The notes beneath the pieces were generated by a model. It ran no database searches. It was not told the DNA's origin and saw only the letters and a list, made by a program, of their open reading frames with translations. Positions 16,069-57,335 of a stretch of DNA of 58,311 nucleotides are shown here, in pieces (positions within the stretch are counted from its first letter, which is position 1; every line of letters starts with the position of its first letter). This stretch comes from a virus (Duplodnaviria; Caudoviricetes). Both the position numbers and the translations under genes were made by a program. The stretch covers positions 1-58,311 of IMG/VR virus record IMGVR_UViG_3300021962_000124; one strand, 5' to 3'.

Positions 16069-16072
16069 GTTA

Positions 16073-46726: not shown

Positions 46727-46918
46727 TCAGGCACCCAGAACTTGACGTGCGTAGGCATTAGCAGCAACACACAGGTGGATGTCATCGAGGAACATATCTG
46801 AACCGATTAGAAACTCCTGCCACTCACACTTTACGTTGCGAATGAAGTCTTGGTCCGCGAGGTCGATGAGACCATAGACGAAGGAATAGAGTTGATAGAT
46901 GTAGTTGTCAGTGATCAT
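46727..46918 (-). CDS. Hypothetical protein
   Basis: 63-aa ORF downstream of repeat copy 1. Confidence 0.65.
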   Translation of the reverse strand: MITDNYIYQLYSFVYGLIDLADQDFIRNVKCEWQEFLIGSDMFLDDIHLCVAANAYARQVLGA

Positions 46919-46966
46919 TTGGTAAGTCTTGAGTGTTAGCGGGGCGGGTCTTTGTCGTTTGCCCCT

Positions 46967-46999
46967 TACACTATAAGGACACTTTCAAGGCCCCAAGTT
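46967..46999 (-). repeat. 33-bp intergenic element, copy 1
   Basis: plus strand tacactataaggacactttcaaggccccaagtt. Confidence 0.9.
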
Positions 47000-47008
47000 A
47001 CTGTTACT

Positions 47009-47182
47009 CTACCAACGATCGGGTGTGCTTAAGTCCTCAACATACGCATCGCACTTCTCTGCAGGTTCCAACTTGAATAACTTCTCCCAGTCAATCTGAT
47101 GTGGGTCAAAGTCAGGAAACGCTTGAATGTCTAGAGTGATGCGATAACGAACCTTCTGTGCTTGACTGTATGCTACTGACAT
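47009..47182 (-). CDS. Small hypothetical protein
   Basis: Likely start MSVAYSQAQKVRYRITLD, downstream of the sigma70 promoter at 47210-47238 and a GGAG site. Confidence 0.7.
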   Translation of the reverse strand: MSVAYSQAQKVRYRITLDIQAFPDFDPHQIDWEKLFKLEPAEKCDAYVEDLSTPDRW

Positions 47183-47209
47183 AAGTACGCTCCTTGTGTT
47201 ACTGTAAGT

Positions 47210-47238
47210 ATTGTAAGATGCTGAGACGTTTTTGTCAA
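47210..47238 (-). promoter_or_regulatory. Near-consensus sigma70 promoter (leftward)
   Basis: TTGACA-17 nt-TACAAT. Confidence 0.8.
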
Positions 47239-47310
47239 TGGACCTGGGGGTATTTATGGGCGGGTGGTGGATTTTTGTGCGGGATCTGTGAGGATTTTGT
47301 GACGGGGTGC

Positions 47311-47339
47311 TTGACAGATTTGCAAAGTGCTGATACAAT
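47311..47339 (+). promoter_or_regulatory. Near-consensus sigma70 promoter (rightward, no ORF downstream)
   Basis: TTGACA-17 nt-TACAAT with extended TG. Confidence 0.75.
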
Positions 47340-47528
47340 GCGGCCAAAGATAACAAGGTCTAGACACATTTAAAAGGCACAATAAGGTCTCTATTCTCAA
47401 CAATAAACCCTATTGATTCTCAATAAACTAACACTTATTGAGAATGATTTACAACGCTCATATACATTTAAAAACACATTTAATCAATAAAAAAACGTTT
47501 TTTAACGTTATTTTTACCATAAAGGCAT

Positions 47529-47559
47529 AAAAAAAGACCCCTTAAATGGGGTCTCTTTA
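47529..47559 (-). terminator. Rho-independent terminator, possibly bidirectional
   Basis: AGACCCC-6 nt loop-GGGGTCT; T run on the minus strand, CTTTATT on the plus strand. Confidence 0.75.
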
Positions 47560-47682
47560 TTGATTCTCAGTAGCAAACATTTCGATTCCGTTGATTGCTC
47601 GATTGCCTAAATTAGCAATCCCATTGAATCCAACTGTCGAAAGTATGATACCAATGACTACACCTATCAAGAACTTAGACAT
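47557..47682 (-). CDS. Small membrane protein
   Basis: Hand-translated 41 aa MSKFLIGVVIGIILSTVGFNGIANLG... Confidence 0.65.
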   Translation of the reverse strand: MSKFLIGVVIGIILSTVGFNGIANLGNRAINGIEMFATENQ

Positions 47683-47684
47683 AC

Positions 47685-47921
47685 TCAATCCAATGCAAGT
47701 CTGTAACGAGCATAATCCTCTGCATCAGATCTTTTCTTGAAACGTGCTAACTCTCCTTCAAACTTGAGTGGAAGGTATCGGTATTTCTTTCCTTCCTTGG
47801 TGATAACAGTTCTGGAGAATAGATGAAGAGAGTAAATACCTTCCTGATGTAATTCATACTCTTGCTTTACAATGAAAGGGAGAACTTTGTTATCGTTGAA
47901 TGACTTGGTAGAGAGTAACAT
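47685..47921 (-). CDS. Hypothetical protein
   Basis: 78-aa ORF, tightly packed. Confidence 0.7.
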   Translation of the reverse strand: MLLSTKSFNDNKVLPFIVKQEYELHQEGIYSLHLFSRTVITKEGKKYRYLPLKFEGELARFKKRSDAEDYARYRLALD

Positions 47922-47928
47922 AATGGAA

Positions 47929-48063
47929 TTAGTTGTTGATCAGTTCAGCAGGACTTCCGCATGATTTGTAGAACTCAACCATACGTTTTGCTTCCTCTAA
48001 TGTAGAGAAACTTTGCTCTCTCCATTGTTGTTGATAAGGCGTAAAGTAACGGATTTTGAACAT
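47929..48063 (-). CDS. Small hypothetical protein
   Basis: Hand-translated 44 aa MFKIRYFTPYQQQWREQSFSTLEEAKRMVEFYKSCGSPAELINN; TGATG overlap. Confidence 0.7.
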   Translation of the reverse strand: MFKIRYFTPYQQQWREQSFSTLEEAKRMVEFYKSCGSPAELINN

Positions 48064-48380
48064 CAGTTAAGTACCATACCTTCAGTGAAAGGAATTGTGT
48101 TACCATTATCAATCACAAACCATTCAAAGTCACGTTGAAAGATACGGGCATCATTTCCATGAACTTTCAGAATAGCATTGAGACGTGATTTGGTAGTGGG
48201 AGTTTTATACCCACAAGTGTAAAGTTCAAGGAAGGTATCACCAATCGTTGCAATATGATTGCCGTGAAGATACACATAATTGGCATCACGTTCGGGAGAA
48301 TAAGTTACTTCAGTGTTGTCATTCTTCCAGTCTTTGCAATCACAAATTGCTTTATTCATTTGGAGTTCGATCTTTCGCAT
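48063..48380 (-). CDS. Conserved phage hypothetical protein
   Basis: MRKIE..M..AI, VYLHGNHIA, TTKSRLNA, IFQRDFEWF. Confidence 0.8.
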   Translation of the reverse strand: MRKIELQMNKAICDCKDWKNDNTEVTYSPERDANYVYLHGNHIATIGDTFLELYTCGYKTPTTKSRLNAILKVHGNDARIFQRDFEWFVIDNGNTIPFTEGMVLN

Positions 48381-48398
48381 GGTAGGAAGTTCAGTGGT

Positions 48399-48431
48399 TA
48401 TACAATAGGGACACTTTCAAGGCCCCAGGTT
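48399..48431 (-). repeat. 33-bp element, copy 2
   Basis: tatacaatagggacactttcaaggccccaggtt. Confidence 0.92.
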
Positions 48432-48439
48432 GTGATTAC

Positions 48440-48715
48440 TCAGAACTGAGTTGTTGTAACAATCTCCTCTGCAAGTTCATCACCTACAATACCAGCAATG
48501 AACTCTTGAGTTGAATCATCATCCTCACCTTCTGCAACCCAAATATCTTCAATTAGCATTGCAACATCAGTATCACCCTGACCAGGATTTTGGTCAAAAG
48601 ATGACATCATCATTTGCACAGCATAGGATACCAAATCATCCATGTCCATGTTATCAATTACCCGATTGCAATGTGCAACCAGAAGATCAGAAACTTGTTC
48701 GGAAGTAAGAGTCAT
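48440..48715 (-). CDS. Acidic hypothetical protein (paralog of 49549..49809)
   Basis: LT.EQ...LL......ID.MD.D.LV.YA. Confidence 0.75.
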   Translation of the reverse strand: MTLTSEQVSDLLVAHCNRVIDNMDMDDLVSYAVQMMMSSFDQNPGQGDTDVAMLIEDIWVAEGEDDDSTQEFIAGIVGDELAEEIVTTTQF

Positions 48716-48752
48716 TTTGTTGGAAAAAGTTGAGTGGAAAAAAAGAGAGAAA

Positions 48753-48968
48753 TCAGGCAGCGATTGCAGACTCTAGACATACCTCACGAGTGTCCAGGAT
48801 AGCATAATCAAAACCCTCAACTTCTTCCAGGTGTTTTTGATAAGCAACAGCAGAGGAGAAGCAATCAAACAAGCGGAGAGATTTGAAGTCTTCACCTTCA
48901 TAATCAATTCCACCAATCACAGCATAGACAGACATTTTGGACATTTGGGAGGTTTGGAAGAGCATCAT
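48753..48968 (-). CDS. Hypothetical protein
   Basis: VYAVIGGIDYEGE...LFDC.S.A..Y; the start could be any of several in-frame ATGs. Confidence 0.7.
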   Translation of the reverse strand: MMLFQTSQMSKMSVYAVIGGIDYEGEDFKSLRLFDCFSSAVAYQKHLEEVEGFDYAILDTREVCLESAIAA

Positions 48969-48998
48969 ACTATAGGGACACTTTCAAGGCCCCAGGTT
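48966..48998 (-). repeat. 33-bp element, copy 3
   Basis: catactatagggacactttcaaggccccaggtt. Confidence 0.95.
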
Positions 48999-49139
48999 TC
49001 AATCACAAACAATCATCGGTCCTTCAATATCACAAAACTCTAAAAGAAAGTGATCAATGTTGATACCTAACTCATTTGCAAACTGTAGATTTTCTTGGTA
49101 TTGTTCCTGTGATAGAATATAGAAATCAGTCTCAATCAT
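48999..49139 (-). CDS. Small acidic hypothetical protein
   Basis: Likely start MIETDFYILSQ with GGAGG upstream; the longer ORF-track call overlaps another gene. Confidence 0.65.
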   Translation of the reverse strand: MIETDFYILSQEQYQENLQFANELGINIDHFLLEFCDIEGPMIVCD

Positions 49140-49281
49140 TGTCGATTTGTCCTCCTTGAATTTCAACATTTTCGAGTACAGTGACGATTTGATTGTTTGG
49201 AGTAAGGTATTCAATTTGCAGAACATTTGGTGCGATTTCAGTAGATCCAATGATCGCAGATGCAAGCAGAAGTTCAATCAT
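49132..49281 (-). CDS. Small hypothetical protein
   Basis: Hand-translated 49 aa MIELLLASAIIGSTEIAPNVLQIEYL...; TGATTATG coupling to upstream gene. Confidence 0.65.
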   Translation of the reverse strand: MIELLLASAIIGSTEIAPNVLQIEYLTPNNQIVTVLENVEIQGGQIDND

Positions 49282-49283
49282 AA

Positions 49284-49514
49284 TCAGTCGTAACGTGAGG
49301 AGAGATCAGGACCAGGATTTTCGAGATGTGCAACACTATCAGCAACACCTTCAGCAGTTAGTGCAAACTGAACTTTTTTGCCTTCGTGATAGATGTCAAA
49401 GACAGATTGCACATAAGGTGTCAGATTGCCTTGCGAATCCCAGGCATTTCGTGTATGTGAAGTCTCAACGATTTGATAGACTTTAGAGGTGAGAGGTGAA
49501 ACGTAAGTGCTCAT
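49284..49514 (-). CDS. Hypothetical protein
   Basis: 76 aa; its only ATG lies in repeat copy 4. Confidence 0.7.
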   Translation of the reverse strand: MSTYVSPLTSKVYQIVETSHTRNAWDSQGNLTPYVQSVFDIYHEGKKVQFALTAEGVADSVAHLENPGPDLSSRYD

Positions 49515-49544
49515 ACTATAGGGACAATTTGAAGGCCCCAGGTT
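49512..49544 (-). repeat. 33-bp element, copy 4
   Basis: catactatagggacaatttgaaggccccaggtt. Confidence 0.95.
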
Positions 49545-49548
49545 TCAG

Positions 49549-49809
49549 TTAGTTAAGATCAGTTGATGTTACAGTTTCCAGCAATTCTTCTGCAAACTCA
49601 CGATCATAAACTGCTTGGATTTCATCTAGCAATTCTTCAGGAAGTGAGCAACTTTCACGCAACTTTTCTTCTAACATTTCACTTGCAAATTGTACTAAAC
49701 TGTCGATGTCCATTCCATCAACAACTTGCTCAATGTAGAGTGCAAGAAGTTTATCGTATTGGTCTTGAGTAAGTTCCATTTTGTTTGCAGGATTAGGAAG
49801 GGAAATCAT
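49549..49809 (-). CDS. Acidic hypothetical protein (paralog of 48440..48715)
   Basis: MELTQDQYDKLLALYIEQVVDGMDIDSLVQFA. Confidence 0.75.
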   Translation of the reverse strand: MISLPNPANKMELTQDQYDKLLALYIEQVVDGMDIDSLVQFASEMLEEKLRESCSLPEELLDEIQAVYDREFAEELLETVTSTDLN

Positions 49810-50015
49810 TTCAGAATGTGGCGATAATCAATGGATTTAATACACCAACCCGTTGTGCAGGTGATCTCTTCAACGAGATCTTCTTCATCATCTGCCTCCC
49901 AAATTGTACCGATAGTTTCCTCAGTTATTTCATTCTGATAGTCAGGATCTACATCGCCCCAAGTATCATCATCAGAGGAAAAATCAAACTCAATGTAAGT
50001 AACTTGGAATTGCAT
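49806..50015 (-). CDS. Acidic hypothetical protein
   Basis: 69 aa, IEFDF...W.ADDE.DL..EIT..TGWCI. Confidence 0.75.
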   Translation of the reverse strand: MQFQVTYIEFDFSSDDDTWGDVDPDYQNEITEETIGTIWEADDEEDLVEEITCTTGWCIKSIDYRHILK

Positions 50016-50164
50016 CAGACTTCATCCCTCATTTCAGACAGTTTTTCATACAATGCAGACACATCTGCACCTACAATTTCACTCACTTCGTCCCAATCAT
50101 CATGAAACTCAATGAGAGCAAGAATTGCATCCAATTCTTCAAAAGTAAGAGTGGTTTGTGTCAT
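50015..50164 (-). CDS. Small acidic protein (paralog of 51224..51379)
   Basis: Hand-translated 49 aa MTQTTLTFEELDAILALIEFHDDW...EMRDEV. Confidence 0.7.
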   Translation of the reverse strand: MTQTTLTFEELDAILALIEFHDDWDEVSEIVGADVSALYEKLSEMRDEV

Positions 50165-50166
50165 AA

Positions 50167-50352
50167 TCAGGAAACGACAGAGTAACAAGCAACAGAAGAA
50201 GGAATACCTGAAAGTGCTAGCGAACCGTTGCGATCATCGCAATACTCTTGGGCATCATCTTCGCTGTAGAAAGGTCCAATATACTCAGGAGAATTGAGTG
50301 CGTTGGAATCGAAGCGAACTGTGAATGTTTCAGTCATTGTGGTTTGTCTCAT
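50167..50352 (-). CDS. Hypothetical protein
   Basis: 61 aa, EYIGPFYSEDDAQEY. Confidence 0.7.
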   Translation of the reverse strand: MRQTTMTETFTVRFDSNALNSPEYIGPFYSEDDAQEYCDDRNGSLALSGIPSSVACYSVVS

Positions 50353-50382
50353 ACTATAGGGACACTTTGAAGGCCCCAGGTT
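50350..50382 (-). repeat. 33-bp element, copy 5
   Basis: catactatagggacactttgaaggccccaggtt. Confidence 0.95.
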
Positions 50383-50556
50383 TCAGTAACCGTTCAGGAA
50401 ATCAGCAAGTGCTTCCCGATACTGTTCCTCGGTGTGATAGGTTCTAGCACCAATAGTCAGAGGAAAGGTATGCTTTGGAGCAGAAACTTTAGGCAGGTCA
50501 CGACCCTTATCGAGAACCTGTTGCTTATAAGGATTGGAGTTGTAGTTAGTGTTCAT
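50383..50556 (-). CDS. Small hypothetical protein filling one inter-repeat unit exactly
   Basis: Hand-translated 57 aa MNTNYNSNPYKQQVLDKGRDLP...YREALADFLNGY; ATG in copy 6, stop abuts copy 5. Confidence 0.7.
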   Translation of the reverse strand: MNTNYNSNPYKQQVLDKGRDLPKVSAPKHTFPLTIGARTYHTEEQYREALADFLNGY

Positions 50557-50586
50557 ACTATAGGGACACTTTCAAGGCCCCAGGTT
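50554..50586 (-). repeat. 33-bp element, copy 6
   Basis: catactatagggacactttcaaggccccaggtt (identical to copy 3). Confidence 0.95.
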
Positions 50587-50590
50587 ACTA

Positions 50591-50734
50591 TCATCGAAAA
50601 GTTGCATTGACACCTACAACTTTTGCAGTAGGATTTCGTGCTTGTGCAGTCTCGCGGGCATCTTTCGGGGAGTTAGCATACACTTCCTCCTTGAAGACTT
50701 TACCACCAACGTATAACTGAACTTCGTATTTCAT
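50591..50734 (-). CDS. Small hypothetical protein
   Basis: Hand-translated 47 aa MKYEVQLYVGGKVFKEEVYANSPKDARETAQARNPTAKVVGVNATFR. Confidence 0.75.
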   Translation of the reverse strand: MKYEVQLYVGGKVFKEEVYANSPKDARETAQARNPTAKVVGVNATFR

Positions 50735-50753
50735 TGGATTGTTTGTACTTTGA

Positions 50754-50860
50754 GAAAAATCGTTAATTTGACTGCAGCGGATGACCTATGACACCCTCAC
50801 AGTAGAATTGCAGAAAAAACAGGTTTTTGGTCTAGTGCTGGACTGGGTTCTCAGCGAGAC
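50754..50860. other. ~110-bp structured intergenic element, copy A
   Basis: Shares blocks GGATGACCT, AGAATTGnAGAAAAAnCAGGTTTT and CYAGT-n5-ACTGGGnTCTCAG, in the same order and spacing, with 57354-57464. Confidence 0.75.
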
Positions 50861-50871
50861 ACAAGTGAGAA

Positions 50872-51063
50872 TTACAGCGTCTGCCAGTCTTGTGCCTCTT
50901 TCAAGTTAGAGTTAAAGAACTTTTGTAGAATGGAACTGATCACAGGTTGCCATTCTCTGTCTTTAATTAGGTCACGATTTTGTGCTTCAACAAGAAACTT
51001 AAGGATGCAAGTCTCTTCATTAGCAGTGAAATCAACGCGAGTGAAAGTGTATCCGTCAGTCAT
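50872..51063 (-). CDS. Hypothetical protein
   Basis: MTDGYTFTRVDF...; TGATG overlap with upstream ORF. Confidence 0.7.
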   Translation of the reverse strand: MTDGYTFTRVDFTANEETCILKFLVEAQNRDLIKDREWQPVISSILQKFFNSNLKEAQDWQTL

Positions 51064-51221
51064 CAATCGTCTCCAAAGTTGTTAGCAAGAAAGTCCTCAA
51101 GTTCAGCGAGTTTGGTAGGAGTTAATGCCCAAACATATTCACTGATAATTGTAGCGAGAAGGTCAGGATCTTCACGACATTTCTCATTCAAAAAGAACTC
51201 AAGTTCAGTGAGTTTGTTCAT
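51063..51221 (-). CDS. Small acidic protein
   Basis: Hand-translated 52 aa MNKLTELEFFLNEKCREDPDLL... Confidence 0.7.
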   Translation of the reverse strand: MNKLTELEFFLNEKCREDPDLLATIISEYVWALTPTKLAELEDFLANNFGDD

Positions 51222-51223
51222 AA

Positions 51224-51379
51224 TCAAACCTCTTCACGCATTTTGAGAAGTTCTCTACGAAGTTCGCCACCTTCATAGGCAAGAAGACCCGTAGTTTCAA
51301 TCATGTTATACCATCCTTCATCTTGGTGATACTCAATCAGGGCAACTAGAGCATCAATTTGTGTGGTTGTTAAAGTCAT
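51224..51379 (-). CDS. Small protein (paralog of 50015..50164)
   Basis: Hand-translated 51 aa MTLTTTQIDALVALIEYHQD...KMREEV. Confidence 0.7.
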   Translation of the reverse strand: MTLTTTQIDALVALIEYHQDEGWYNMIETTGLLAYEGGELRRELLKMREEV

Positions 51380-51381
51380 AA

Positions 51382-51549
51382 TCAAACAGGGGTAACTTCA
51401 ACGGAACGGATAAGATTTGTGCGATCTTGCGCTAGATAATCGTCTGCAATCTTGCCACAAGATGAACGCGATTGAATGATCTTTTCTTCGTATAGGTTCT
51501 CATCTTCATCAGGAACCCAATACTCAATCAGAAGGCGATAGTTCTTCAT
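51382..51549 (-). CDS. Small hypothetical protein
   Basis: Likely start MKNYRLLIEYW after TGATTATG. Confidence 0.7.
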   Translation of the reverse strand: MKNYRLLIEYWVPDEDENLYEEKIIQSRSSCGKIADDYLAQDRTNLIRSVEVTPV

Positions 51550-51551
51550 AA

Positions 51552-51794
51552 TCAGTACAGAGGGCAGAATGAACCACAGAAGCGACGAACCCACTGCAAA
51601 GTGTCATAATGACTGCGGGGTTTCGACATCACCATGCTTTTATTTGTTTCAGGGTTGAGAGCAATAGCAACGTATTTGTGGTCACATTCCTGATACTCAG
51701 GAGTGATTTGTTGAATAAACATTTGACGTACAGTACCTTCTTTCCAGTTGGTAGTGTAGTGAAAGACTTGATCCATTTCAGTGGTTGTGCTCAT
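51552..51794 (-). CDS. Hypothetical protein
   Basis: 80 aa, ATG in repeat copy 7. Confidence 0.7.
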   Translation of the reverse strand: MSTTTEMDQVFHYTTNWKEGTVRQMFIQQITPEYQECDHKYVAIALNPETNKSMVMSKPRSHYDTLQWVRRFCGSFCPLY

Positions 51795-51824
51795 ACTATA
51801 GGGACACTTTGAAGGCCCCAGGTT
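51792..51824 (-). repeat. 33-bp element, copy 7
   Basis: catactatagggacactttgaaggccccaggtt (identical to copy 5). Confidence 0.95.
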
Positions 51825-51857
51825 TCAATCAACCTGAGGTAAATCAGGTTTATTTTA

Positions 51858-52163
51858 CTACCTTAAAGAATAGACTTCATCACCAACATCACTCAGAAGA
51901 TTTTGTTGAACGTAATCTCGAACATCATTTGAGTAATCAACAATTTTACCTCCCAAAATTACAAGTTCAGTTCTCAACCTTTCAGAAAGTAGATCTTTTG
52001 AAAAGTAAGTTATTGAGGGATCATTGTCGGGAATGGTTGGATCGTAAATGTTTCCTTTAGCAGATTTTTTAACACACCAATCGTAAGATACGATAGATTT
52101 AATTTTATCTTCTTCTGGAAGAAGTTCTACCCTACGACCAGACTTTTCGTGATAGATTTTCAT
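51858..52163 (-). CDS. Hypothetical protein
   Basis: 101 aa, only gene between copies 8 and 7. Confidence 0.7.
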   Translation of the reverse strand: MKIYHEKSGRRVELLPEEDKIKSIVSYDWCVKKSAKGNIYDPTIPDNDPSITYFSKDLLSERLRTELVILGGKIVDYSNDVRDYVQQNLLSDVGDEVYSLR

Positions 52164-52183
52164 TTGAGTTTGAGAGGTGTGCT

Positions 52184-52216
52184 TACACTATGGGGACACT
52201 TTGAAGGACCCAGGTT
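52184..52216 (-). repeat. 33-bp element, copy 8
   Basis: tacactatggggacactttgaaggacccaggtt. Confidence 0.9.
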
Positions 52217-52224
52217 ACTGATAC

Positions 52225-52488
52225 TTACCAAGTTCCACGTTGGATGTGGATCTTGCGGATCTCTTGATAAAGAAACTGACGAAGTTTAGGTTCGGAAGTG
52301 TTATCAAAAGCATAATAAAGACGATTCAAGTATTCATCCTGTGTGGCACCTATGTTACCATCACCACCGATCTCATTGAGTGCAGAACCTGCAACAACTT
52401 TGCTCTTGCCGAAGTTGCCAGACACACGCCCAGATGTCCTCAGTTTGGGTTTGATCTTTGAGAGGTTAGAGTAAGTCATTGACATCAC
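52225..52488 (-). CDS. Hypothetical protein
   Basis: SNLSKIKPKLRTSG.VSGNFG...; 87 aa. Confidence 0.75.
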   Translation of the reverse strand: MMSMTYSNLSKIKPKLRTSGRVSGNFGKSKVVAGSALNEIGGDGNIGATQDEYLNRLYYAFDNTSEPKLRQFLYQEIRKIHIQRGTW

Positions 52489-52916
52489 TTCGCGTACAGA
52501 TAACCACCAGACCAGTCTGCATTTTCCAGCAGATACTCACGATCTTTGATCAATCGCAGGTCATAACGAACACCTTTGGCAGGAGATTTCCAGGTGGCAG
52601 ACTTATACACTTCGCCAGTGTTCTTATCAATGAAGCAATGAACACTACGCGATCCGCCACCACTCACAAAGATGACTTTGTGATACTTTTTACCAGTCTC
52701 AACAGTATAATCAATGTCACACTTGCCAGACTTGAGTTCATCAATCTTGCGCTGATGATACTCTTGAGTGTCAGCATCATTCACGAACTTTTGATGACCG
52801 CGAATAGAATACTGACGATAATTGTCTTTCAATGCTTCAATCAGCAGCAGAGTGTTCTTATACACATTGTCTGCAATGGTTTGTTGTGCTTGTGCTTGCA
52901 TTGTAGTTGTGCTCAT
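52485..52916 (-). CDS. Conserved phage hypothetical protein
   Basis: GKKYHKV..SVHCFIDKNTGEVYKSATWKSPAKGVRY; start placed at or after the ATG of copy 9 because the ORF-track extension crosses the repeat. Confidence 0.8.
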   Translation of the reverse strand: MSTTTMQAQAQQTIADNVYKNTLLLIEALKDNYRQYSIRGHQKFVNDADTQEYHQRKIDELKSGKCDIDYTVETGKKYHKVIFVSGGGSRSVHCFIDKNTGEVYKSATWKSPAKGVRYDLRLIKDREYLLENADWSGGYLYAK

Positions 52917-52946
52917 ACTATAAGGACAATTTGAAGGCCCCAGGTT
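52914..52946 (-). repeat. 33-bp element, copy 9
   Basis: catactataaggacaatttgaaggccccaggtt. Confidence 0.93.
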
Positions 52947-52950
52947 ACAT

Positions 52951-53859
52951 TCACCAATTCTTTTGAAGTGTAAAGTTTTGACGACTGAACTCTTCACGAT
53001 TTACGATCTTGTACGATCCAAACTTGTTGGTCATAACATAACCTTCGTGATCGCTCAGTTGTCCATCAATCTCACACGAAATGTCGGTGTCAGATTCAAT
53101 GAAGCAGAACAAATCCATCTTGATAGATTCAACCAACTTCCACAAACGCAGAACATTCACATCAACATCATAATTTTCTGCAATTTCATGCTCATCGACC
53201 TCCTTACCCTCACGGATGTAGGAATTGATGACTTTTTTGAGTTCTGTTGCTTGTTTGTTGCTTACAAAGGTGCAAAGAGTGCTCATTTGTTTAGCAAACT
53301 TGCAGAAGTCTTCGATGTCATCACGATGAGGACAGATAGATGCTTCAGGTTGCACCCATTTCACATCCAGAGTATCAACAAACTGTTTGCTGATAGGATG
53401 TGCAACAGCATTGCGAAGATCACTCTCACAATCATACTCAGTGTGAGGAGCAATGATTACACTTTGCTCGATCACCTCATCGAACTTGTAAGTGATCGTA
53501 TTGGGGCGATAAGTATCATCACCGCCAAAACCAATAAAATCACCTTGATAGATGTGATTTGTGCGAGGAAGACTATCAAAGCAAGCATGAAGAATAGTCG
53601 CAACTTTACCCTCATGGTTCGCATCAATTTCTTCATGTGAATGATTGATCTTGATCTTTACTTTGTTGAACACAGATTTGGTGCCAACGAAGAACTTACC
53701 ATTGGCAGGATTGCGACCCCACACAATAGCAGGAGCACCATCAATCTTGACACTGATAGTAGAATCAGCAGAGAACCAATCAAGAACCGAAAGATCACCC
53801 GTAAGGATCATATCTTCAGGATGTTCGAGATGTTTGTTTTGCATTGGTTGCTTGCTCAT
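52951..53859 (-). CDS. Protein with ligase/nucleotidyltransferase-like motifs
   Basis: HLEHPED N-terminus, SVKIDGAP (KxDG), HEGYV, YKIVNR. Confidence 0.7.
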   Translation of the reverse strand: MSKQPMQNKHLEHPEDMILTGDLSVLDWFSADSTISVKIDGAPAIVWGRNPANGKFFVGTKSVFNKVKIKINHSHEEIDANHEGKVATILHACFDSLPRTNHIYQGDFIGFGGDDTYRPNTITYKFDEVIEQSVIIAPHTEYDCESDLRNAVAHPISKQFVDTLDVKWVQPEASICPHRDDIEDFCKFAKQMSTLCTFVSNKQATELKKVINSYIREGKEVDEHEIAENYDVDVNVLRLWKLVESIKMDLFCFIESDTDISCEIDGQLSDHEGYVMTNKFGSYKIVNREEFSRQNFTLQKNW

Positions 53860-53889
53860 ACTACTACGACAGTTTCAAGGCCCCAGGTT
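53857..53889 (-). repeat. 33-bp element, copy 10
   Basis: catactactacgacagtttcaaggccccaggtt. Confidence 0.88.
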
Positions 53890-53892
53890 ATA

Positions 53893-54096
53893 TTAAACTT
53901 GCACCAATTTGGCAAGACGATTGCGAATATCAAAGATCTCCATTTCATCCATATCTACGGCATCCAAATCTACAGGAGCAAACTCCTCAAGATTTACATT
54001 TCCGTCAGCATAGATGGGTGCATAATACAACTCATCACCATCTTCTTGCGAGAGAGTATAAACGCAACCGTGACCAGGAACAGTGAGAAAAATCAT
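53893..54096 (-). CDS. Small acidic hypothetical protein
   Basis: Likely start MIFLTVPGHGCVYTL. Confidence 0.7.
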   Translation of the reverse strand: MIFLTVPGHGCVYTLSQEDGDELYYAPIYADGNVNLEEFAPVDLDAVDMDEMEIFDIRNRLAKLVQV

Positions 54097-54117
54097 TGGA
54101 GTTTCACGAACAAAGGT

Positions 54118-54163
54118 ACAATAAAGGAGCACAAGCATAAAAGCAAGTGCTCCTGTGACAGTT
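54118..54163 (-). promoter_or_regulatory. Stem-loop with embedded sigma70-like promoter and upstream AAACTGTCACA box
   Basis: AGGAGCAC / GTGCTCCT stem; TTGCTT-17 nt-TATTGT. Confidence 0.5.
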
Positions 54164-54165
54164 TA

Positions 54166-54423
54166 TCAAGCGGAACGACGCTTGCGGGTTTTAGTAACAG
54201 TAGCAGGTTGCTCCACTACTTCAGCAGGAGAAAGTTGTGCTTTACCAAACTCAATCAGTGTATCAACAAACTTCAGAAACTGAAGAGTTGCAACACGAAC
54301 TTTCTCACTTCCATTGTTCTCATTGAAGGAACGAATGAGGAATTGAACTACACCAACAACGACGGCACTGATAGTAGCGACGTTCTTGACGAGAGTATCA
54401 ACAAATGTCCAGTAAAAGGTCAT
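54166..54423 (-). CDS. Hypothetical protein with hydrophobic segment and basic tail
   Basis: Likely start MTFYWTFVD; VATISAVVVGVVQFLI; ends KTRKRRSA. Confidence 0.7.
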   Translation of the reverse strand: MTFYWTFVDTLVKNVATISAVVVGVVQFLIRSFNENNGSEKVRVATLQFLKFVDTLIEFGKAQLSPAEVVEQPATVTKTRKRRSA

Positions 54424-54458
54424 AGTTTGTATTAGAAACTGCGGTGGGGACACGTCCT

Positions 54459-54491
54459 CACATCATAGGGACACTTTCAAGGCCCCAGGTT
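54459..54491 (-). repeat. 33-bp element, copy 11
   Basis: cacatcatagggacactttcaaggccccaggtt. Confidence 0.9.
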
Positions 54492-54495
54492 TAAC

Positions 54496-55269
54496 TCAAC
54501 CAAATTGCGTCAGATCAACTGGAATGTTTCCAATTCGATCCTCTGCGATCTTAAAGTATTCGGAATCACTTTCCATACCAATGAACTTACGTCCTAGTTT
54601 TACAGCAGCAACACCTGTAGATCCAGATCCCATACAATTATCCAACACAACTTCACCCTCGTTAGAGTAAGTTTTTACCAACCATTCCATTAGTGGAACT
54701 GGTTTTTGTGTAGGATGAACTTGTTGCTGAGCACTGAAATCTCTTGAAATGTTGAGAACTGACTTCGGATACCTTGTACCATCATTAGAGAATGATTTGC
54801 GTGGTTTCATACCATAACCATGATCATTCTTTCGACCAACGTAACCCTCTGGGTTCTTACTTGTTCTTGAGTATGGTTCTCCTTTTTCCATCTGTGGGTT
54901 GTATGTACCACCTGCGTTCTTGTAGAAGATCAGAATGTTCTCGTGAGTCTTCATTGGTCTGTATTTGGCAAGTCCAGGCGACCCACATTTGTTCTTGTTC
55001 CACACTAACTCGTACCTGAACCATTCTAACTTTGAGCAAATAAGTTGTGCGGAAAAAGGCTGAGAACCAAACAGGCAAATCACACCCTTAGGTTTAATGA
55101 TTCTGCCATACTGTTCCCACATAAGGTTAAAATCTAAAACCTCATCCCATTTGATCGAAGTAGTACCAAAAGGTGGATCACAGCAAATAAAATCAATAGA
55201 AGAATCGGGGATGTCTTTCATCAACTGAAGGCAATCCCCGAATTGTAGATCAAAGTTGCTCAAAACCAT
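54496..55269 (-). CDS. DNA amino-methyltransferase (N6A/N4C, beta class)
   Basis: GDCL, motif IV DPPF, HPTQKPV.L, motif I VLDNCMGSGSTG, in beta-class order. Confidence 0.93.
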   Translation of the reverse strand: MVLSNFDLQFGDCLQLMKDIPDSSIDFICCDPPFGTTSIKWDEVLDFNLMWEQYGRIIKPKGVICLFGSQPFSAQLICSKLEWFRYELVWNKNKCGSPGLAKYRPMKTHENILIFYKNAGGTYNPQMEKGEPYSRTSKNPEGYVGRKNDHGYGMKPRKSFSNDGTRYPKSVLNISRDFSAQQQVHPTQKPVPLMEWLVKTYSNEGEVVLDNCMGSGSTGVAAVKLGRKFIGMESDSEYFKIAEDRIGNIPVDLTQFG

Positions 55270-55855
55270 TGTGTGCGTTAATTTTGCGGCGTACAGATTC
55301 CTTGTAACATTCTACCAGAAACTTGTATGCTTGTCCATAGTCACGCTCAACGGGTTGAGTGTTATCCTTCCACTTAATTTGGAAGGGAAGATTATTACCA
55401 TTTGGAGTAATCTTCTGAAGAGACTTGAGACTTTGCAGATAAACTTTCTGAGTTCCCTTATCTACAACAATGATATAATAATCACGGTTGTTCTCTGCTC
55501 CACTGTGATTCTTCAGTGCATCCTGGAACTTTGCCCAGGAACTTGCATTAACTTGATCTTCAGGAAGATCAGTCAGAGCATACAAAATTGCTGCTTTTGA
55601 CGAAAAGTTATCTGCTGCACCTTTGTTGAAATCAGATGACTTAATGTTGAGATAATACCCAAACAATTTGACATCCCACCAGCAACGTGCTGGTGGTTTC
55701 TCTACATTTTCAGGACCATACTTCTCAACAAGAAGATCAATTACAGTGTCTTCATCTGCAATACTATTCACTCGCCCATCTTCATGACTCTCACTAATTG
55801 TAACAATGCCAGAGAGATAACTCACTACATCGGTAAGTTGTTGCGGAAAGTTCAT
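55250..55855 (-). CDS. Putative type II restriction endonuclease
   Basis: Overlaps the methyltransferase; E...WWD...NIK arrangement compatible with a PD-(D/E)xK variant. Confidence 0.55.
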   Translation of the reverse strand: MNFPQQLTDVVSYLSGIVTISESHEDGRVNSIADEDTVIDLLVEKYGPENVEKPPARCWWDVKLFGYYLNIKSSDFNKGAADNFSSKAAILYALTDLPEDQVNASSWAKFQDALKNHSGAENNRDYYIIVVDKGTQKVYLQSLKSLQKITPNGNNLPFQIKWKDNTQPVERDYGQAYKFLVECYKESVRRKINAHNGFEQL

Positions 55856-55867
55856 GTGGTTAGTGGT

Positions 55868-55900
55868 TACAATGAAGAGACAGTTTCAAGGCCCCAGGTT
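55868..55900 (-). repeat. 33-bp element, copy 12 (3' part degenerate)
   Basis: tacaatgaagagacagtttcaaggccccaggtt. Confidence 0.85.
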
Positions 55901-55904
55901 AGCA

Positions 55905-56108
55905 TTAGTCAATAGGTAATTTTGCATTAGAGCAATTTTTTCTGTGGTCGGTGATATACTTTCGTGCAGAACTTTCAGTCCTACAGAGTTTCTCAAGTTG
56001 CTGACCATTGTGGATGATTAGATACTGATTTCCATAAGGAATTGCAGCATAGGTGTCTTTGAACATCGTAAATCCTTCTTTCATTTTAGAAAAACTTAGT
56101 TTGTGCAA
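55905..56108 (-). CDS. Small hypothetical protein
   Basis: YAAIPYG.QY.IIHNGQQL..CRT..SA; true start probably MKEGF. Confidence 0.7.
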   Translation of the reverse strand: MHKLSFSKMKEGFTMFKDTYAAIPYGNQYLIIHNGQQLEKLCRTESSARKYITDHRKNCSNAKLPID

Positions 56109-57231
56109 GATTACCTAGTGCAGGTTTCATTAGTGGATTAGATTCTGCCAGGAACTTATTCCAAGAAGTGCTATCAGATCCTTCAAAAGGAATAGCGGTA
56201 TTCTGAGTTCCCTTAAACTTCAACCGTTTGATGCGACAATAATCATTGTAAAGAAATACAAAACGACAAACAGCAGGTTCATTTCCTTTATAGACACCAT
56301 TACCCTGAACAACATCAGATTGTTTGAGATTTCTAGCATCAGGATCAACCACACTCATAATGTCTCCATATTCAGTGAAGTAAAACTTCATCATCCCAGA
56401 AAATGAATCAACGTTGTTCTTTTTATCCACATCTTCAATATAAGAATGGAATGTTTTCAAGAAAAGAGAACCAGCAACAGTAGCATTGCCTTCAACATCT
56501 CTTGCACATTCGTGGGTAGTAAATGCTGTCAGATATTTTGTTGTATATTCTCTACCTGCCAGACGAATAGCAGTGCTCAAATATGAATGAGAAGGACAAT
56601 TAAACTTTGCCCCGTCAAGAGTTCCTGCAATACCAATACTGAACTTGGAAAGATATTGGTAGAGATTAGTTGCCCACTCTTCTTCGGCATAATATGCAGA
56701 CTTGAACTTATCATCACCACTTTGGTTAGTTCGATAGTTACAATCTGTATTGTGATCCAATGACTCAATGCGAATCATTTCCTCATAAGAGACACTCTTA
56801 CGATGCAATTTAAGAGAAACAATTACTCTTGCATTTTCATTTCTTCCGCAAGCATATCGTTTTGATGCACGATTATTTCCTTTTGTTAGAACTGCTTTTA
56901 GAGTTGGACGAAGATATGCAGAAAGAGTATCTGCAGCATCATAAGAAAACCCACCTCGTTTTTCGATGTGCTGTTTCTGATTACCATACCTAAGTTCTTC
57001 AATACGATTGTAGGTAGGATCGCTCCAAAGATCTCCAACTTTAGCAGAACAAATGACTGTAGAACCTTCAGCAATCTCTCCAGAGTTATATTTGGAAACA
57101 ATATCTTCCATAAGAGGAAGATTTTCTGGCGGGTTATCTACTGTTCCAAAACCTTGCAAGTATTCTTTGGTCTTATCATCTACCTTATCTTCGTAACACT
57201 TGCACACGCGAAGAAGTTCCTTAAATGCCAT
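56086..57231 (-). CDS. Hypothetical protein, possible ParB/Srx-like N-terminal domain
   Basis: 381 aa; VGDLWSDPTYNR and LTKGNNR resemble ParB/DGQHR-type motifs; AGGAGG ribosome-binding site. Confidence 0.7.
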   Translation of the reverse strand: MAFKELLRVCKCYEDKVDDKTKEYLQGFGTVDNPPENLPLMEDIVSKYNSGEIAEGSTVICSAKVGDLWSDPTYNRIEELRYGNQKQHIEKRGGFSYDAADTLSAYLRPTLKAVLTKGNNRASKRYACGRNENARVIVSLKLHRKSVSYEEMIRIESLDHNTDCNYRTNQSGDDKFKSAYYAEEEWATNLYQYLSKFSIGIAGTLDGAKFNCPSHSYLSTAIRLAGREYTTKYLTAFTTHECARDVEGNATVAGSLFLKTFHSYIEDVDKKNNVDSFSGMMKFYFTEYGDIMSVVDPDARNLKQSDVVQGNGVYKGNEPAVCRFVFLYNDYCRIKRLKFKGTQNTAIPFEGSDSTSWNKFLAESNPLMKPALGNLAQTKFF

Positions 57232-57268: not shown

Positions 57269-57335
57269 AAAATCAACCGTTTTTATGTGTTATGGTTGAT
57301 TTTTTTAGTTTAACAACTTTGGGTAGGGATGTCAA
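57269..57335 (-). promoter_or_regulatory. Sigma70 promoter with downstream 10-bp inverted repeat
   Basis: TTGACA(57330-57335)-17 nt-TAAACT(57307-57312) with extended TG; AAAATCAACC-n15-GGTTGATTTT at 57269-57303. Confidence 0.7.

What the first reader, a model, noticed from the sequence alone, without database searches (positions are those of the whole stretch)
46967..55900. Cassette-like gene array punctuated by 12 copies of a 33-bp element that abuts stop codons and donates start codons
Seen in sequence: 12 direct repeats, coding-strand consensus AACCTGGGGCCTT(G/C)AAAGTGTCCCTATAGTATG, ending (plus coordinates) at 46999, 48431, 48998, 49544, 50382, 50586, 51824, 52216, 52946, 53889, 54491 and 55900. 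Spacing is 204-1432 bp, and each unit holds whole genes. In 11 of 12 copies the AAC end lies 0-9 nt after the previous stop codon. The left 22 bp are nearly invariant while the TATAGT part varies. GGGGC/GTCCC can pair as a hairpin. There is no TTGACA at -35 spacing. Established: T4-type phages have repeated early-promoter cassettes (PeSL elements) that shuffle small genes by recombination, and integron attC sites also begin with AAC just after a stop codon. Inference: this is a non-canonical phage early promoter or activator site, or a recombination site for gene capture and shuffling, or both. No recombinase gene is in this window.
Basis: partly seen in the sequence, partly recalled or inferred. 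Interest (0 to 1): 0.88.

Follow-up and report, generated by a model that had tools for sequence, protein, structure and literature searches.

The report
Repeated promoter-like cassette punctuation in cyanophage
A T4-like cyanophage marks the head of each small early-region operon with the same roughly 40-base promoter-like element, whose upstream box differs between phage lineages, and gene cassettes are gained and lost at these elements in related phages.

Summary
Twelve same-strand copies lie at 46967-55900, against 0 expected by chance. Eleven of 12 start 0-9 nt after a stop codon, and 7 of 12 supply an ATG that opens an ORF.

The window is a fragment of a T4-like cyanomyovirus. The array sits in the small-ORF region between a helicase gene and the baseplate genes.

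The element is bipartite. The core AAAGTGTCCCTATAGTRT is shared with phages S-SM2 and SynMITS9220M01 and with more than 119 IMG/VR stretches. The upstream 14-16 nt are nearly uniform within a genome but differ sharply between lineages. Their most constrained hexamer sits 16-17 bp upstream of an invariant T-A-n-n-n-T, which is the slot of a bacterial -35 box. It is not TTGACA-like.

P-TIM68 carries 13 related copies with the same geometry.

In close contig pairs, similarity breakpoints hit 58 of 125 element-bearing gene junctions but only 32 of 243 others. Clean "element-cassette-element versus single element" indels exist.

Best reading (0.5): a host-RNA-polymerase promoter class with a phage-specific upstream recognition box, which also serves as a substrate for homologous recombination, like the PeSL elements of T4-type phages.

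No transcript 5' ends, no trans factor and no recombination intermediates were seen. The hairpin, attC-like and T7-like readings are not supported.

The parts
55868..55900 (-). Element copy 12. The core is degenerate, with GTA instead of ATG. It heads the endonuclease and N6/N4-methylase cassette.
   Evidence: gene families
54459..54491 (-). Element copy 11 (TATGAT, GTG). It heads two small ORFs.
53857..53889 (-). Element copy 10 (AGTAGT variant). Its ATG is followed 15 nt later by an in-frame ATG that aligns with the conserved N-terminus of the DUF6267 protein.
52914..52946 (-). Element copy 9. Its ATG opens the DUF7717 ORF.
52184..52216 (-). Element copy 8 (CATAGT, GTA). The next ATG lies about 30 nt downstream.
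51792..51824 (-). Element copy 7. It heads a six-ORF operon. It is the one copy that lies 33 nt after the previous stop codon.
50554..50586 (-). Element copy 6. Its ATG is the only start of a 57-aa ORF that ends exactly at the next copy.
50350..50382 (-). Element copy 5. It heads a four-ORF operon.
49512..49544 (-). Element copy 4. It heads a two-ORF operon.
48966..48998 (-). Element copy 3. It heads a two-ORF operon that includes a DUF7326 protein.
48399..48431 (-). Element copy 2 (TATTGT, ATA). It heads the Kyano_Gp96 operon, which ends at the terminator.
46967..46999 (-). Element copy 1 (GTA variant). It lies downstream of the sigma-70-like promoter unit.
47530..47562 (-). Intrinsic terminator (GC-rich hairpin followed by a T run). 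It closes the run of 11 elements and is the only clear terminator inside the array region.
   Evidence: sequence read; the hairpin is listed
47210..47238 (-). Canonical sigma-70-type promoter (TTGACA, 17 nt, TACAAT), in a 340-nt non-coding stretch after the terminator. It shows that the phage also uses ordinary host-type promoters.
57307..57335 (-). Sigma-70-type promoter match (TTGACA, 17 nt, TAAACT, preceded by TG), upstream of the 381-aa ORF just before the array.

Best explanation
Each copy is a compact promoter cassette that fills the whole gap between two operons in the early, hyperplastic region of a T4-like cyanomyovirus.

Inferred anatomy on the coding strand:
- A lineage-specific box, TGGGGC within AACCTGGGGCCTTS in this phage. 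It occupies about -34 to -29, which is the slot of a -35 element.
- A spacer whose first part, AAAGTGT, is conserved in all lineages.
- A -10 hexamer TAGTRT.
- A conserved R-A-R-C-A stretch, where transcription would start.
- A G-poor A/C-rich leader.

Inferred mechanism. Host RNA polymerase uses the -10 hexamer. The box is read by something other than region 4 of the host primary sigma factor, most likely a phage-encoded factor that co-evolves with it. This resembles in logic the MotA box of T4 middle promoters, but nothing here is homologous to that system. There are no terminators between copies, so transcripts from each copy run through all downstream cassettes to the terminator at about 47540.

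Second role. The copies are near-identical direct repeats. They are therefore also substrates for homologous recombination, which deletes, inserts and swaps whole cassettes, as described for the PeSL elements of T4-type coliphages and vibriophages.

Shown here: the repeats, their bipartite conservation, their geometry, their genomic restriction, and the coincidence of cassette breakpoints with elements in relatives.

Inferred, not shown: promoter activity, the position of the transcription start, the existence of a trans factor, and the recombination mechanism.
For: 1) Context. Pfam hits to gp6, gp8 and gp9/10, with giant baseplate ORFs, mark a T4-like cyanomyovirus. The region is syntenic with helicase - small ORFs - purM - baseplate in S-SM2 and SynMITS9220M01.

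2) Distribution.
- The 19-nt core occurs 7 times in S-SM2 and 8 times in SynMITS9220M01. All are on the forward strand, all within 38.9-57.1 kb of roughly 190-kb genomes, and the reversed-pattern control gave 0.
- 527 distinct copies were collected.

3) Bipartite conservation.
- In 67 contigs with at least 4 copies, pairwise identity of the left 14 nt is 0.873 within contigs and 0.464 between contigs.
- Only 6 of 504 copies carry a box foreign to their contig.
- Where flanking genes are 85-95% identical between contigs, the box differs at a mean of 4.8 of 10 positions (211 downstream-flank pairs).

4) Promoter geometry.
- Among 463 copies chosen without using the -10 part, the most conserved bases spell T(.98) A(.97) G(.91) T(.99) R T(.95). 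These match the T-12, A-11 and T-7 positions of a sigma-70-type -10 hexamer. The first two bases of 'TATAGT' are weaker (.81 and .77).
- Degenerate copies in the window keep the n-A-n-n-n-T pattern.
- Within-contig mismatch is 0.3-3.6% at box positions L5-L10, which lie 16-17 nt upstream of that hexamer (49 contigs, 389 copies).

5) Gene relation.
- The copies share the strand of the genes and lie only at operon heads.
- When the motif lacks ATG, the first ORF-opening ATG lies a median of 21 nt after the position-7 triplet (which starts one base before the hexamer's last T), with a sharp lower bound at 15. Leaders are 7% G.

6) P-TIM68 has 13 forward copies at 47.1-56.1 kb of its 197-kb genome. 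They share their box with one contig type. They have TAATGT at the same distance from the box, then in several copies AAGGA and an ATG 13-17 nt after the hexamer.

7) A distinct promoter class. Perfect TTGACA-17/18-TAnnnT promoters also occur in the window.

8) Recombination.
- Of 82 internal ends of high-identity segments in 22 close contig pairs, 28 lie inside an element and 44 within 20 nt. Random positions give 2.6% and 5.1%.
- 58 of 125 element-bearing junctions are breakpoints, against 32 of 243 element-less junctions. The odds ratio is 5.7 (directed, non-independent pairs).
- Clean cases: L047/L134, L047/L059 and L031/L063 show two copies flanking 0.3-1.3 kb in one contig against a single copy in the other. 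L029/L054 show unrelated 2.8-kb and 3.8-kb inserts between matching copies.
Against: - No transcript 5' ends exist for any phage carrying the element, and no RNA run was listed.
- With TAGTRT as the -10 hexamer, the motif ATG lies at -8 to -6, upstream of any start made by that promoter. Yet this ATG opens an ORF of at least 30 aa in 213 of 228 copies. In 77 of 244 copies no other ATG follows within 51 nt. In S-SM2 and SynMITS9220M01 it is the annotated start of the conserved DUF6267 gene. Those genes would have to be translated from read-through transcripts of upstream copies.
- Predicted leaders would be only about 6-10 nt when the start codon sits at the common +15 position.
- No candidate factor was found. 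S-SM2 and SynMITS9220M01 show only the gp55-type sigma region 2 hit, no region 4_2 and no MotA C-terminal domain.
- A screen of 34 gene families in the contigs found none tightly coupled to box type.
- The uniformity of the box could come from gene conversion or recent spread rather than from recognition.
- The breakpoint evidence comes from metagenome assemblies, where repeats can in principle cause mis-joins, and from relatives. No relative with at least 92% identity to this window was available.
- The between-lineage conservation of the core in the IMG/VR set is partly built in, because the loci were fetched with the core pattern.
Confidence: 0.5

Rival explanations
1. Plain promoter with a passive upstream half. 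The element is a host-polymerase promoter that needs only the -10 hexamer. The lineage-specific half is not read by any protein. Its uniformity within a genome comes from gene conversion or repeated recombination among copies, and from exchange mostly among close relatives.
For: - Cassette recombination at the elements is frequent in relatives.
- Hybrid and foreign boxes exist (L052 and L120; 6 of 504).
- No factor gene was found.
- By my recall, not from a call, marine picocyanobacterial promoters often lack a -35 element.
Against: - In the window the upstream half is better conserved than the -10 part: 2 of 156 mismatches against 9 of 72.
- Across 49 contigs the sharpest constraint falls on a discrete hexamer (0.3-3.6% mismatch), while the 3 nt next to the core vary at 9-21%. 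Homogenisation alone predicts an even profile.
- Foreign boxes make up only 1.2% of copies, although the shared core offers homology between lineages.
- P-TIM68 keeps a box identical to one contig type while its core has diverged.
Confidence: 0.22
2. RNA-level element. The conserved sequence acts in the polycistronic transcript, as a processing site or as a 5'-end-defining and translation-start module. The RNA 5' end would be created at the 3' edge of the core. This would give either a nearly leaderless AUG or a leader of at least 15 nt.
For: - The motif ATG opens an ORF in 213 of 228 copies.
- Start codons sit either exactly at the motif or at least 15 nt downstream.
- Of 167 copies with both a motif ATG and a second ATG, 140 have the two in frame.
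- The element starts right after stop codons.
- Changes in the window's stem are mostly G-U compatible.
Against: - No Rfam family matches.
- The hairpin is not conserved: 4 of 20 box types reach z < -1.5 and the mean z is -0.38.
- The spacing from the core to the start codon is not fixed.
- The conservation pattern T-A-n-n-n-T plus a box 16-17 nt upstream is what a DNA promoter predicts.
- The in-frame bias is also expected from selection on read-through transcripts.
Confidence: 0.15
3. Promoter for a phage-encoded single-subunit (T7-type) or otherwise unknown RNA polymerase that starts at the G of CTATAG.
For: - A core of about 16-18 nt is conserved up to a TATA-G.
- By recall it resembles SP6- and T7-type promoters.
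- The plus strand reads ACTATAGGGA.
- All copies within a genome are near-identical, as in T7-like phages.
- A start at that G would place the motif ATG at the 5' end of the RNA.
Against: - No PF00940 match in six-frame searches of the complete S-SM2 and SynMITS9220M01 genomes. No control genome rang, so the sensitivity of that search is unproven.
- The 866-aa ORF just upstream of the S-SM2 array is a tail-fibre-like protein with a Peptidase_G2 domain.
- 88 of 463 copies have AGTA or TGTA instead of TATA.
- CTATAG is its own reverse complement, so some of the resemblance comes for free.
Confidence: 0.04
4. Site-specific recombination site for cassette capture, like an integron attC.
For: - The element begins with AAC just after stop codons.
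- Each unit holds whole genes.
- Cassette indels are bounded by copies.
Against: - There is no inverted-repeat or bulged-hairpin architecture and no closing GTT-type half-site.
- No integrase-type gene is known in this phage group, and none was seen among the window ORFs scanned. The window covers only 27% of the genome.
- Indels have the form expected from homologous exchange between direct repeats.
- T4-type phages have very active homologous recombination (recall).
Confidence: 0.03

Closest known systems
PeSL elements (promoter-early stem-loop) of T4-type phages RB49/phi1, T4/PST and KVP40/nt-1 (Arbiol 2010, PMC2839356: listing and start of abstract only; Comeau 2014, PMC4122927: first part of the text and one passage)
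   Same: Both are short repeated regulatory cassettes between small ORFs of hyperplastic regions, in one orientation. In both, indels and replacements between close relatives end in them. They work alike as mobile promoter punctuation.
   Different: PeSLs carry a sigma-70-type -35 box (TTGACA, TTTACW or TTGYVH) at 17-nt spacing and a stem-loop upstream. Here the -35 slot holds a lineage-specific box unlike TTGACA, the stem-loop is not general, and the element abuts or overlaps both the stop and the start codon. The PeSL text I read does not mention cyanophages (0 occurrences). Puxty 2015 found no dense PeSLs in S-PM2.
T4 middle promoters (MotA box plus sigma-70 -10 hexamer, with AsiA 'sigma appropriation'). 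nt-1 has the related 'PmSL' elements.
   Same: Both have a sigma-70-type -10 hexamer combined with a conserved, non-sigma box around -30 to -35 in place of a -35 element. This suggests a phage-encoded activator.
   Different: There is no TGCTT box. No MotA C-terminal domain was found in S-SM2 or SynMITS9220M01. Cyanomyoviruses are reported to lack motA and asiA (Clokie 2010, passage). Here the box differs from lineage to lineage.
Promoters of T7-, SP6- and T3-type single-subunit polymerases
   Same: Near-identical copies occur within a genome, the specificity part differs by lineage, and a TATA lies next to a G.
   Different: No such polymerase gene was found in the two complete genomes. The lineage-specific part lies further upstream than in T7-type promoters (recall).
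Integron attC sites
   Same: Both lie between cassettes and start with AAC near a stop codon.
   Different: There is no imperfect palindrome, no integrase, and no closing half-site. The definition of attC used here is recalled, not taken from a call.
Intergenic repeats of halovirus HF2 that carry promoters (PMC8707807; listing and start of abstract only)
   Same: Repeated intergenic elements of a virus that were conjectured to be promoters and were cloned upstream of a reporter gene to test this. I saw only the title ('carry promoters') and the start of the abstract, not the reporter result.
   Different: That is an archaeal virus with an archaeal promoter type, and the sequence is unrelated.

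Membership tests
PeSL (T4-type promoter-early stem-loop) | Repeated element in a hyperplastic region between small ORFs, co-oriented with them | tested here: met
   12 of 12 copies lie on the gene strand at operon heads. The same holds in S-SM2, SynMITS9220M01 and P-TIM68.
PeSL (T4-type promoter-early stem-loop) | Sigma-70-type early promoter with a -35 box (TTGACA-like), 17 nt, and a -10 box | tested here: not met
   The -10-like TAGTRT is present. The -35 slot holds TGGGGC, GGGGAC, AGTAAC, GCTCAC and so on, not TTGACA-like sequences.
PeSL (T4-type promoter-early stem-loop) | Stem-loop immediately upstream of the promoter | tested here: not met
   A weak stem overlaps the spacer in G-rich types only. 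4 of 20 types reach z < -1.5 and the mean z is -0.38.
PeSL (T4-type promoter-early stem-loop) | Indel and replacement end points between close relatives fall in the elements | tested here: met
   28 of 82 segment ends lie inside elements, against 2.6% for random positions. 58 of 125 element junctions are breakpoints, against 32 of 243 others. All of this is in relatives, not in the window itself.
PeSL (T4-type promoter-early stem-loop) | Excised circular cassette products | not testable with these tools
   No run holding the window was listed, and no reads were laid.
T4 MotA-dependent middle promoter | MotA box (TGCTT-containing) centred near -30 | tested here: not met
   No such box is visible in any of the box types listed.
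T4 MotA-dependent middle promoter | motA and asiA genes in the phage | tested here: not met
   PF09158 is absent from S-SM2 and SynMITS9220M01. A review states that cyanomyoviruses lack them. The window's own genome is only 27% present.
T7-type single-subunit polymerase promoter | Phage encodes a single-subunit RNA polymerase | tested here: not met
   PF00940 gave 0 candidates in both complete genomes. No positive control rang in that search.
Integron attC | Imperfect inverted repeat with paired core sites, folding into a bulged hairpin | tested here: not met
   Inverted repeats in the upstream half are not enriched (p = 0.09), and folding is not general.
Integron attC | Associated tyrosine-recombinase integrase | tested here: inconclusive
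   None was seen among the window ORFs scanned, but most of this genome is missing. The complete relatives were not scanned for an integrase.
Any Rfam RNA family | Covariance-model match | tested here: not met
   Only 3 chance-level hits at E of 0.06 or more, none at an element.

The most novel reading that the evidence does not exclude
A clade of T4-like cyanomyoviruses, which lack MotA and AsiA, controls a whole class of early-region operons through an unidentified phage-encoded promoter-specificity factor. The factor reads a hexamer in the -35 slot. Factor and box switch together between lineages, giving a dozen or more discrete 'promoter dialects'. These dialects also act as compatibility groups that limit which cassettes can be exchanged and expressed.
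Probability: 0.33. Interest if true: 0.85.

Novelty: new variant of a known kind. Interest (0 to 1): 0.62.

Why it matters
How T4-like cyanophages switch transcription without the T4 proteins Alt, Mod, MotA and AsiA has been described as unclear (Clokie 2010 review, passage seen).

This element gives a concrete, sequence-defined promoter class to test. It occurs in two or three cultured phages: S-SM2, SynMITS9220M01, and in a diverged form P-TIM68. Its lineage-specific box is a direct handle for fishing out the protein that reads it.

It also extends PeSL-type 'mobile promoter cassette' shuffling to marine cyanophages. Their hyperplastic regions carry host-takeover genes and auxiliary genes.

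On the practical side, the motif marks operon starts. It can correct start-codon calls, as for the DUF6267 homologue of P-TIM68. It could also serve as a marker for this clade in metagenomes.

Tried and rejected
Expression data. No RNA holder was listed for window 46900-56000, so no reads were laid and read laying was not used.

Literature. Doron 2016 (Syn9 transcriptome) is not held, by DOI or by PMC id. Weigele 2007 was not looked up. Both concern Syn9, which lacks the core at up to 3 mismatches beyond what the control gave. Searches found no description of this motif. The text search for an 11-mer of the core returned 22 unrelated papers; I took them for primer or T7-promoter contexts from their titles alone and did not open them. 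Sullivan 2010 Fig. S5 (logos of predicted cyanophage promoters, named in the passage) could bear on novelty and was not seen.

Other cultured phages. The core is absent at up to 2 mismatches from B23, Bellamy, S-B05 and S-SSM7. P-TIM68 gave one chance-like hit. It is absent from S-PM2.

Hairpin. Rejected as a general feature.

Palindromes in the upstream half. Mean arm length was 2.40 against 2.13 in shuffles, p = 0.09, so not significant.

Candidate factors.
- The 381-aa ORF at 56086-57231, which has a sigma-70-like promoter, has homologues in Syn1, S-RIM44 and S-CREM1. It has none in the neighbouring ORFs of S-SM2 or SynMITS9220M01.
- SSM2_040 (866 aa) is tail-fibre-like.
- In the screen of 34 families against box type, most families have near-identical members in contigs of different box types. 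DUF7326 showed the mildest coupling: 58.7% identity within types, 46.7% between, maximum 80.7%. That is a lead only.

Flanks of foreign-type copies. These gave no consistent donor pattern.

Rfam. Nothing relevant.

Structure prediction, fold search, the search for homologous proteins, the search of protein representatives, complex prediction and the metagenome or genome contig scans were not used.

Full report
WHAT IS THERE. The 24-nt left part of the reported consensus occurs 12 times in the window. None of 100 shuffles gave any match. An independent repeat search recovered the same family. Using the ORF lists and the sequence, the element begins 0-9 nt after the previous stop codon in 11 of 12 copies. 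In 7 of 12 copies its last three bases are an ATG that opens the next ORF. Counting by eye, mismatches are 2 of 156 in the first 13 nt, 9 of 120 in AAAGTGTCCC and 9 of 72 in TATAGT. The left part is therefore the best conserved.

CONTEXT. The window is a 58-kb virus record, estimated 27% complete. Its large ORFs hit T4 gp6, gp8 and gp9/10 families, next to 4484-aa and 2581-aa baseplate or fibre-like proteins. The best gp6 matches are about 60% identical and come from Synechococcus and Prochlorococcus myoviruses B23, S-SM2, Bellamy and P-TIM68. The array lies between a helicase gene and the baseplate genes, as in S-SM2 and SynMITS9220M01. It punctuates about 30 small ORFs, mostly of Kyanoviridae-specific DUF families, plus an endonuclease and N6/N4-methylase pair and a DUF6267 protein. 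Inside a unit, genes overlap or abut without the element, so each unit is an operon of 1-6 genes. The run of 11 copies from 55900 down to 48431 ends at a strong intrinsic terminator near 47540. After it come a 340-nt non-coding stretch and a perfect TTGACA-17-TACAAT promoter. The phage therefore also uses ordinary host-type promoters, and the repeat is a different class.

THE ELEMENT IS BIPARTITE AND WIDESPREAD. A BLAST search with one copy hit only its right half in S-SM2 and SynMITS9220M01. Pattern searches of these complete genomes gave 7 and 8 copies. All are on the forward strand and all lie in one roughly 15-kb stretch of the syntenic region. The reversed-pattern control gave none. Their right halves match the window (AAAG[T/C]GTCCCTATAGT[A/G]T), but their left halves are quite different: AAGGGGGGTCGCCT in S-SM2 and AATGTTACTCACCTCT in SynMITS9220M01. 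Each is uniform within its genome. I collected 527 distinct copies from these loci. In the 67 contigs with at least 4 copies, the left 14 nt are 87% identical within a contig and 46% identical between contigs. The 10 nt after the core are 56% and 50%. The between-contig conservation of the core is partly built in by the way the loci were fetched. It is independently shown by the window, S-SM2 and SynMITS9220M01. Only 6 of 504 copies carry a box foreign to their contig, and one of these looks like an overlap artefact. Where the gene downstream is 85-95% identical between two contigs (211 pairs), the 10 most constrained box positions differ at 4.8 sites on average. At 95% identity or more (71 pairs) they differ at 0.76. 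The upstream half therefore changes as a set within a genome, and much faster than the neighbouring genes.

GEOMETRY. I chose 463 copies by the upstream half and AAAGTGTCCC only, so that the downstream part was unbiased. The next bases are T .81, A .77, T .98, A .97, G .91, T .99, R, T .95, R, A .85, n, C .63, A .79. The invariant bases spell TAGTRT, which fits the T-12, A-11 and T-7 positions of a sigma-70-type -10 hexamer. 'TATAGT' is the weaker parse, since AGTAGT and TGTAGT make up 88 of 463 copies. Measured against each contig's own consensus (49 contigs, 389 copies), mismatch is 0.3-3.6% at box positions L5-L10. It is 9-21% at the three bases next to the core, below 1% at AAA and GT of the core, and 25-45% in the flanks. 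With TAGTRT at -12 to -7, L5-L10 falls at about -34 to -29. That is the -35 slot with a 16-17-nt spacer. In the window this hexamer is TGGGGC. Other lineages have GGGGAC, AGTAAC, GCTCAC, TGAGCC, TGGGCC and more. None resembles TTGACA. This is the architecture of a bacterial promoter whose upstream box is not meant for the host primary sigma factor.

A DIVERGED RELATIVE. P-TIM68 lacks the core. In the syntenic region it has 13 forward copies of a related element. Its box, TGTTAGTTACCTCT, is the same as in one contig type (L092, L135). It is followed by AAATTGA, then TAATGT at the same distance as TAGTRT. In several copies an AAGGA follows, with an ATG 13-17 nt after the hexamer. This is a box, -10, short leader and start codon layout, and it supports the promoter reading. 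Bellamy has other repeats in this region: a hairpin followed by an AT-rich stretch. Syn9, S-PM2, B23, S-B05 and S-SSM7 lack the core.

START CODONS. After TATAGT the triplet is ATG in 244 of the 527 copies, GTA in 155, ATA in 78 and something else in 50. In a second tally of copies with enough downstream sequence, the motif ATG opens an ORF of at least 30 aa in 213 of 228 copies that carry it. If ATG is absent, the first ORF-opening ATG lies a median of 21 nt further on, with a sharp lower limit at 15 nt. The leaders are only 7% G. Of the 244 ATG copies, 167 have a second ATG within 51 nt. It is in frame in 140 of them and lies exactly 15 nt on in 83. These copies are not independent, because many belong to homologous genes. 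In the DUF6267 family either the motif ATG or the second ATG aligns with the conserved N-terminus. This cuts two ways. Under the TAGTRT parse the motif ATG lies at -8 to -6, so it cannot be on the transcript that its own copy starts. Genes that depend on it must then be read from transcripts of upstream copies. That is possible, because no terminators lie between copies, and the in-frame bias would then be selection on those read-through transcripts. The alternative is an RNA 5' end at the core's edge, which would give leaderless or long-leader mRNAs. I keep that as a rival.

WHO READS IT. Six-frame family searches of the complete S-SM2 and SynMITS9220M01 genomes found no single-subunit RNA polymerase (no control genome carries one, so sensitivity is unproven). 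They found only the gp55-type sigma region 2 match, no sigma region 4_2 and no MotA C-terminal domain. A review passage states that cyanomyoviruses lack alt, mod, motA and asiA, and that their early and middle control is unclear. A factor, if there is one, belongs to no family I could name. My screen of 34 gene families in the contigs found none tightly coupled to box type. The factor gene may lie outside these fragments.

RECOMBINATION. The window has no relative with at least 92% identity in the collections I searched. Gene-order maps against 18 contigs show a common backbone with many cassette gains and losses and some reorderings, for example in L123, L067 and L015. Among the fetched loci, 22 pairs share two or more segments of at least 92% identity. 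Of 82 internal segment ends, 28 lie inside an element and 44 within 20 nt, against 2.6% and 5.1% for random positions. With simple gene calls, 58 of 125 element-bearing junctions are breakpoints, against 32 of 243 junctions without an element. The odds ratio is 5.7 (the pairs are directed and not independent, so the p-value is only indicative). Four cases are clean. L047/L134, L047/L059 and L031/L063 show two copies flanking 0.3-1.3 kb in one contig and a single copy in the other. L029/L054 show unrelated 2.8-kb and 3.8-kb inserts between matching copies. This is the signature of exchange between direct repeats that was described for PeSLs. One caveat: these are metagenome assemblies, and repeats can cause mis-joins. 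However, a 40-48-nt repeat is shorter than the larger k-mers usually used, by my recall.

WHAT IT IS NOT. The GGGGC/GTCCC stem is real in this phage, but only 4 of 20 box types fold better than shuffles at z < -1.5. Palindromes are not enriched. No Rfam family matches. The attC and PeSL stem-loop features are therefore not met. The likeness to T7-type promoters rests on CTATAG, which is its own reverse complement, and it lacks a polymerase gene to go with it.

VERDICT. It is a bipartite, promoter-like cassette element of a clade of T4-like cyanomyoviruses, with a genome-specific box in the -35 slot, and it coincides with cassette exchange points. In function it is closest to PeSLs. In logic it is closest to MotA-type promoters. 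It fails defining features of both, so I call it a new variant of a known kind. I found no description of it in eight full-text searches. Doron 2016, Weigele 2007 and all supplements were out of reach. Promoter activity, the transcription start, the timing class, the factor and the recombination mechanism all remain inferences.

Noticed in passing
window 47200-47562 (minus strand): A strong intrinsic terminator is followed by a 340-nt AT-rich non-coding stretch and a perfect TTGACA-17-TACAAT promoter. A mirror-image match lies on the plus strand at 47311-47339. This could be a divergent control region inside the early cluster.
   Followed up: partly
window 54496-55855 (minus strand): An endonuclease (phrog_3978, E = 4e-88) and an N6/N4 DNA methylase (PF01555) form one cassette behind element copy 12. 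They are about 76% identical in DNA to a 'DNA adenine methylase | restriction endonuclease' pair in S-MbCM100 and ACG-2014a phages.
   Followed up: partly
window 27517-40971 and 17318-25063 (minus strand): Giant ORFs of 4484 aa (gp7 position, with a YHYH domain) and 2581 aa (DUF4815). GC content drops to 0.29-0.31 across the first one, against 0.40-0.41 in the array region.
   Followed up: no
window 53641-54435 (plus strand): A 264-aa ATG ORF runs antisense to two small minus-strand ORFs and to the start of DUF6267. It has no Pfam-type or PHROG hit, so it is probably not a gene. The two small minus-strand ORFs have no hits either.
   Followed up: partly
window 49549-49809 and 48440-48715 (minus strand): Two very acidic DUF7326 paralogues lie in different cassettes. 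In the contig set this family showed the mildest coupling to box type: 58.7% identity within types, 46.7% between, and no cross-type pair above 81%.
   Followed up: partly
L148 (P-TIM68) 10281-10425: The DUF6267 homologue seems to start at an ATG 13 nt after the element's hexamer (reading MKNLHLEHPE). That is about 100 nt upstream of the annotated start.
   Followed up: partly
IMG/VR loci, e.g. L066/L096 versus L061/L111: Two box types carry 8-mers that are reverse complements of each other, GAAGCCTC and GAGGCTTC, at the same place. I have no explanation.
   Followed up: no
L052 and L120: Mixed arrays. L052 has one copy with a box from another type and one apparent hybrid box. L120 has one foreign box among six copies. 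These could be traces of exchange between lineages.
   Followed up: partly
L147 (Bellamy) about 15650-16745 and 6457-6520: A different repeat family sits in the syntenic region: a GC-rich hairpin followed by TGTAT(T/A)ATTAAAGAGTCAAAGG. It looks more like a classical stem-loop-plus-promoter (PeSL) layout.
   Followed up: no
window, plus strand of every well-kept copy: The plus strand reads ACTATAGGGA. As I recall, this equals the -6 to +4 stretch of the T7 promoter, but it points antisense to the genes. I judged it a by-product of the palindromic CTATAG.
   Followed up: partly
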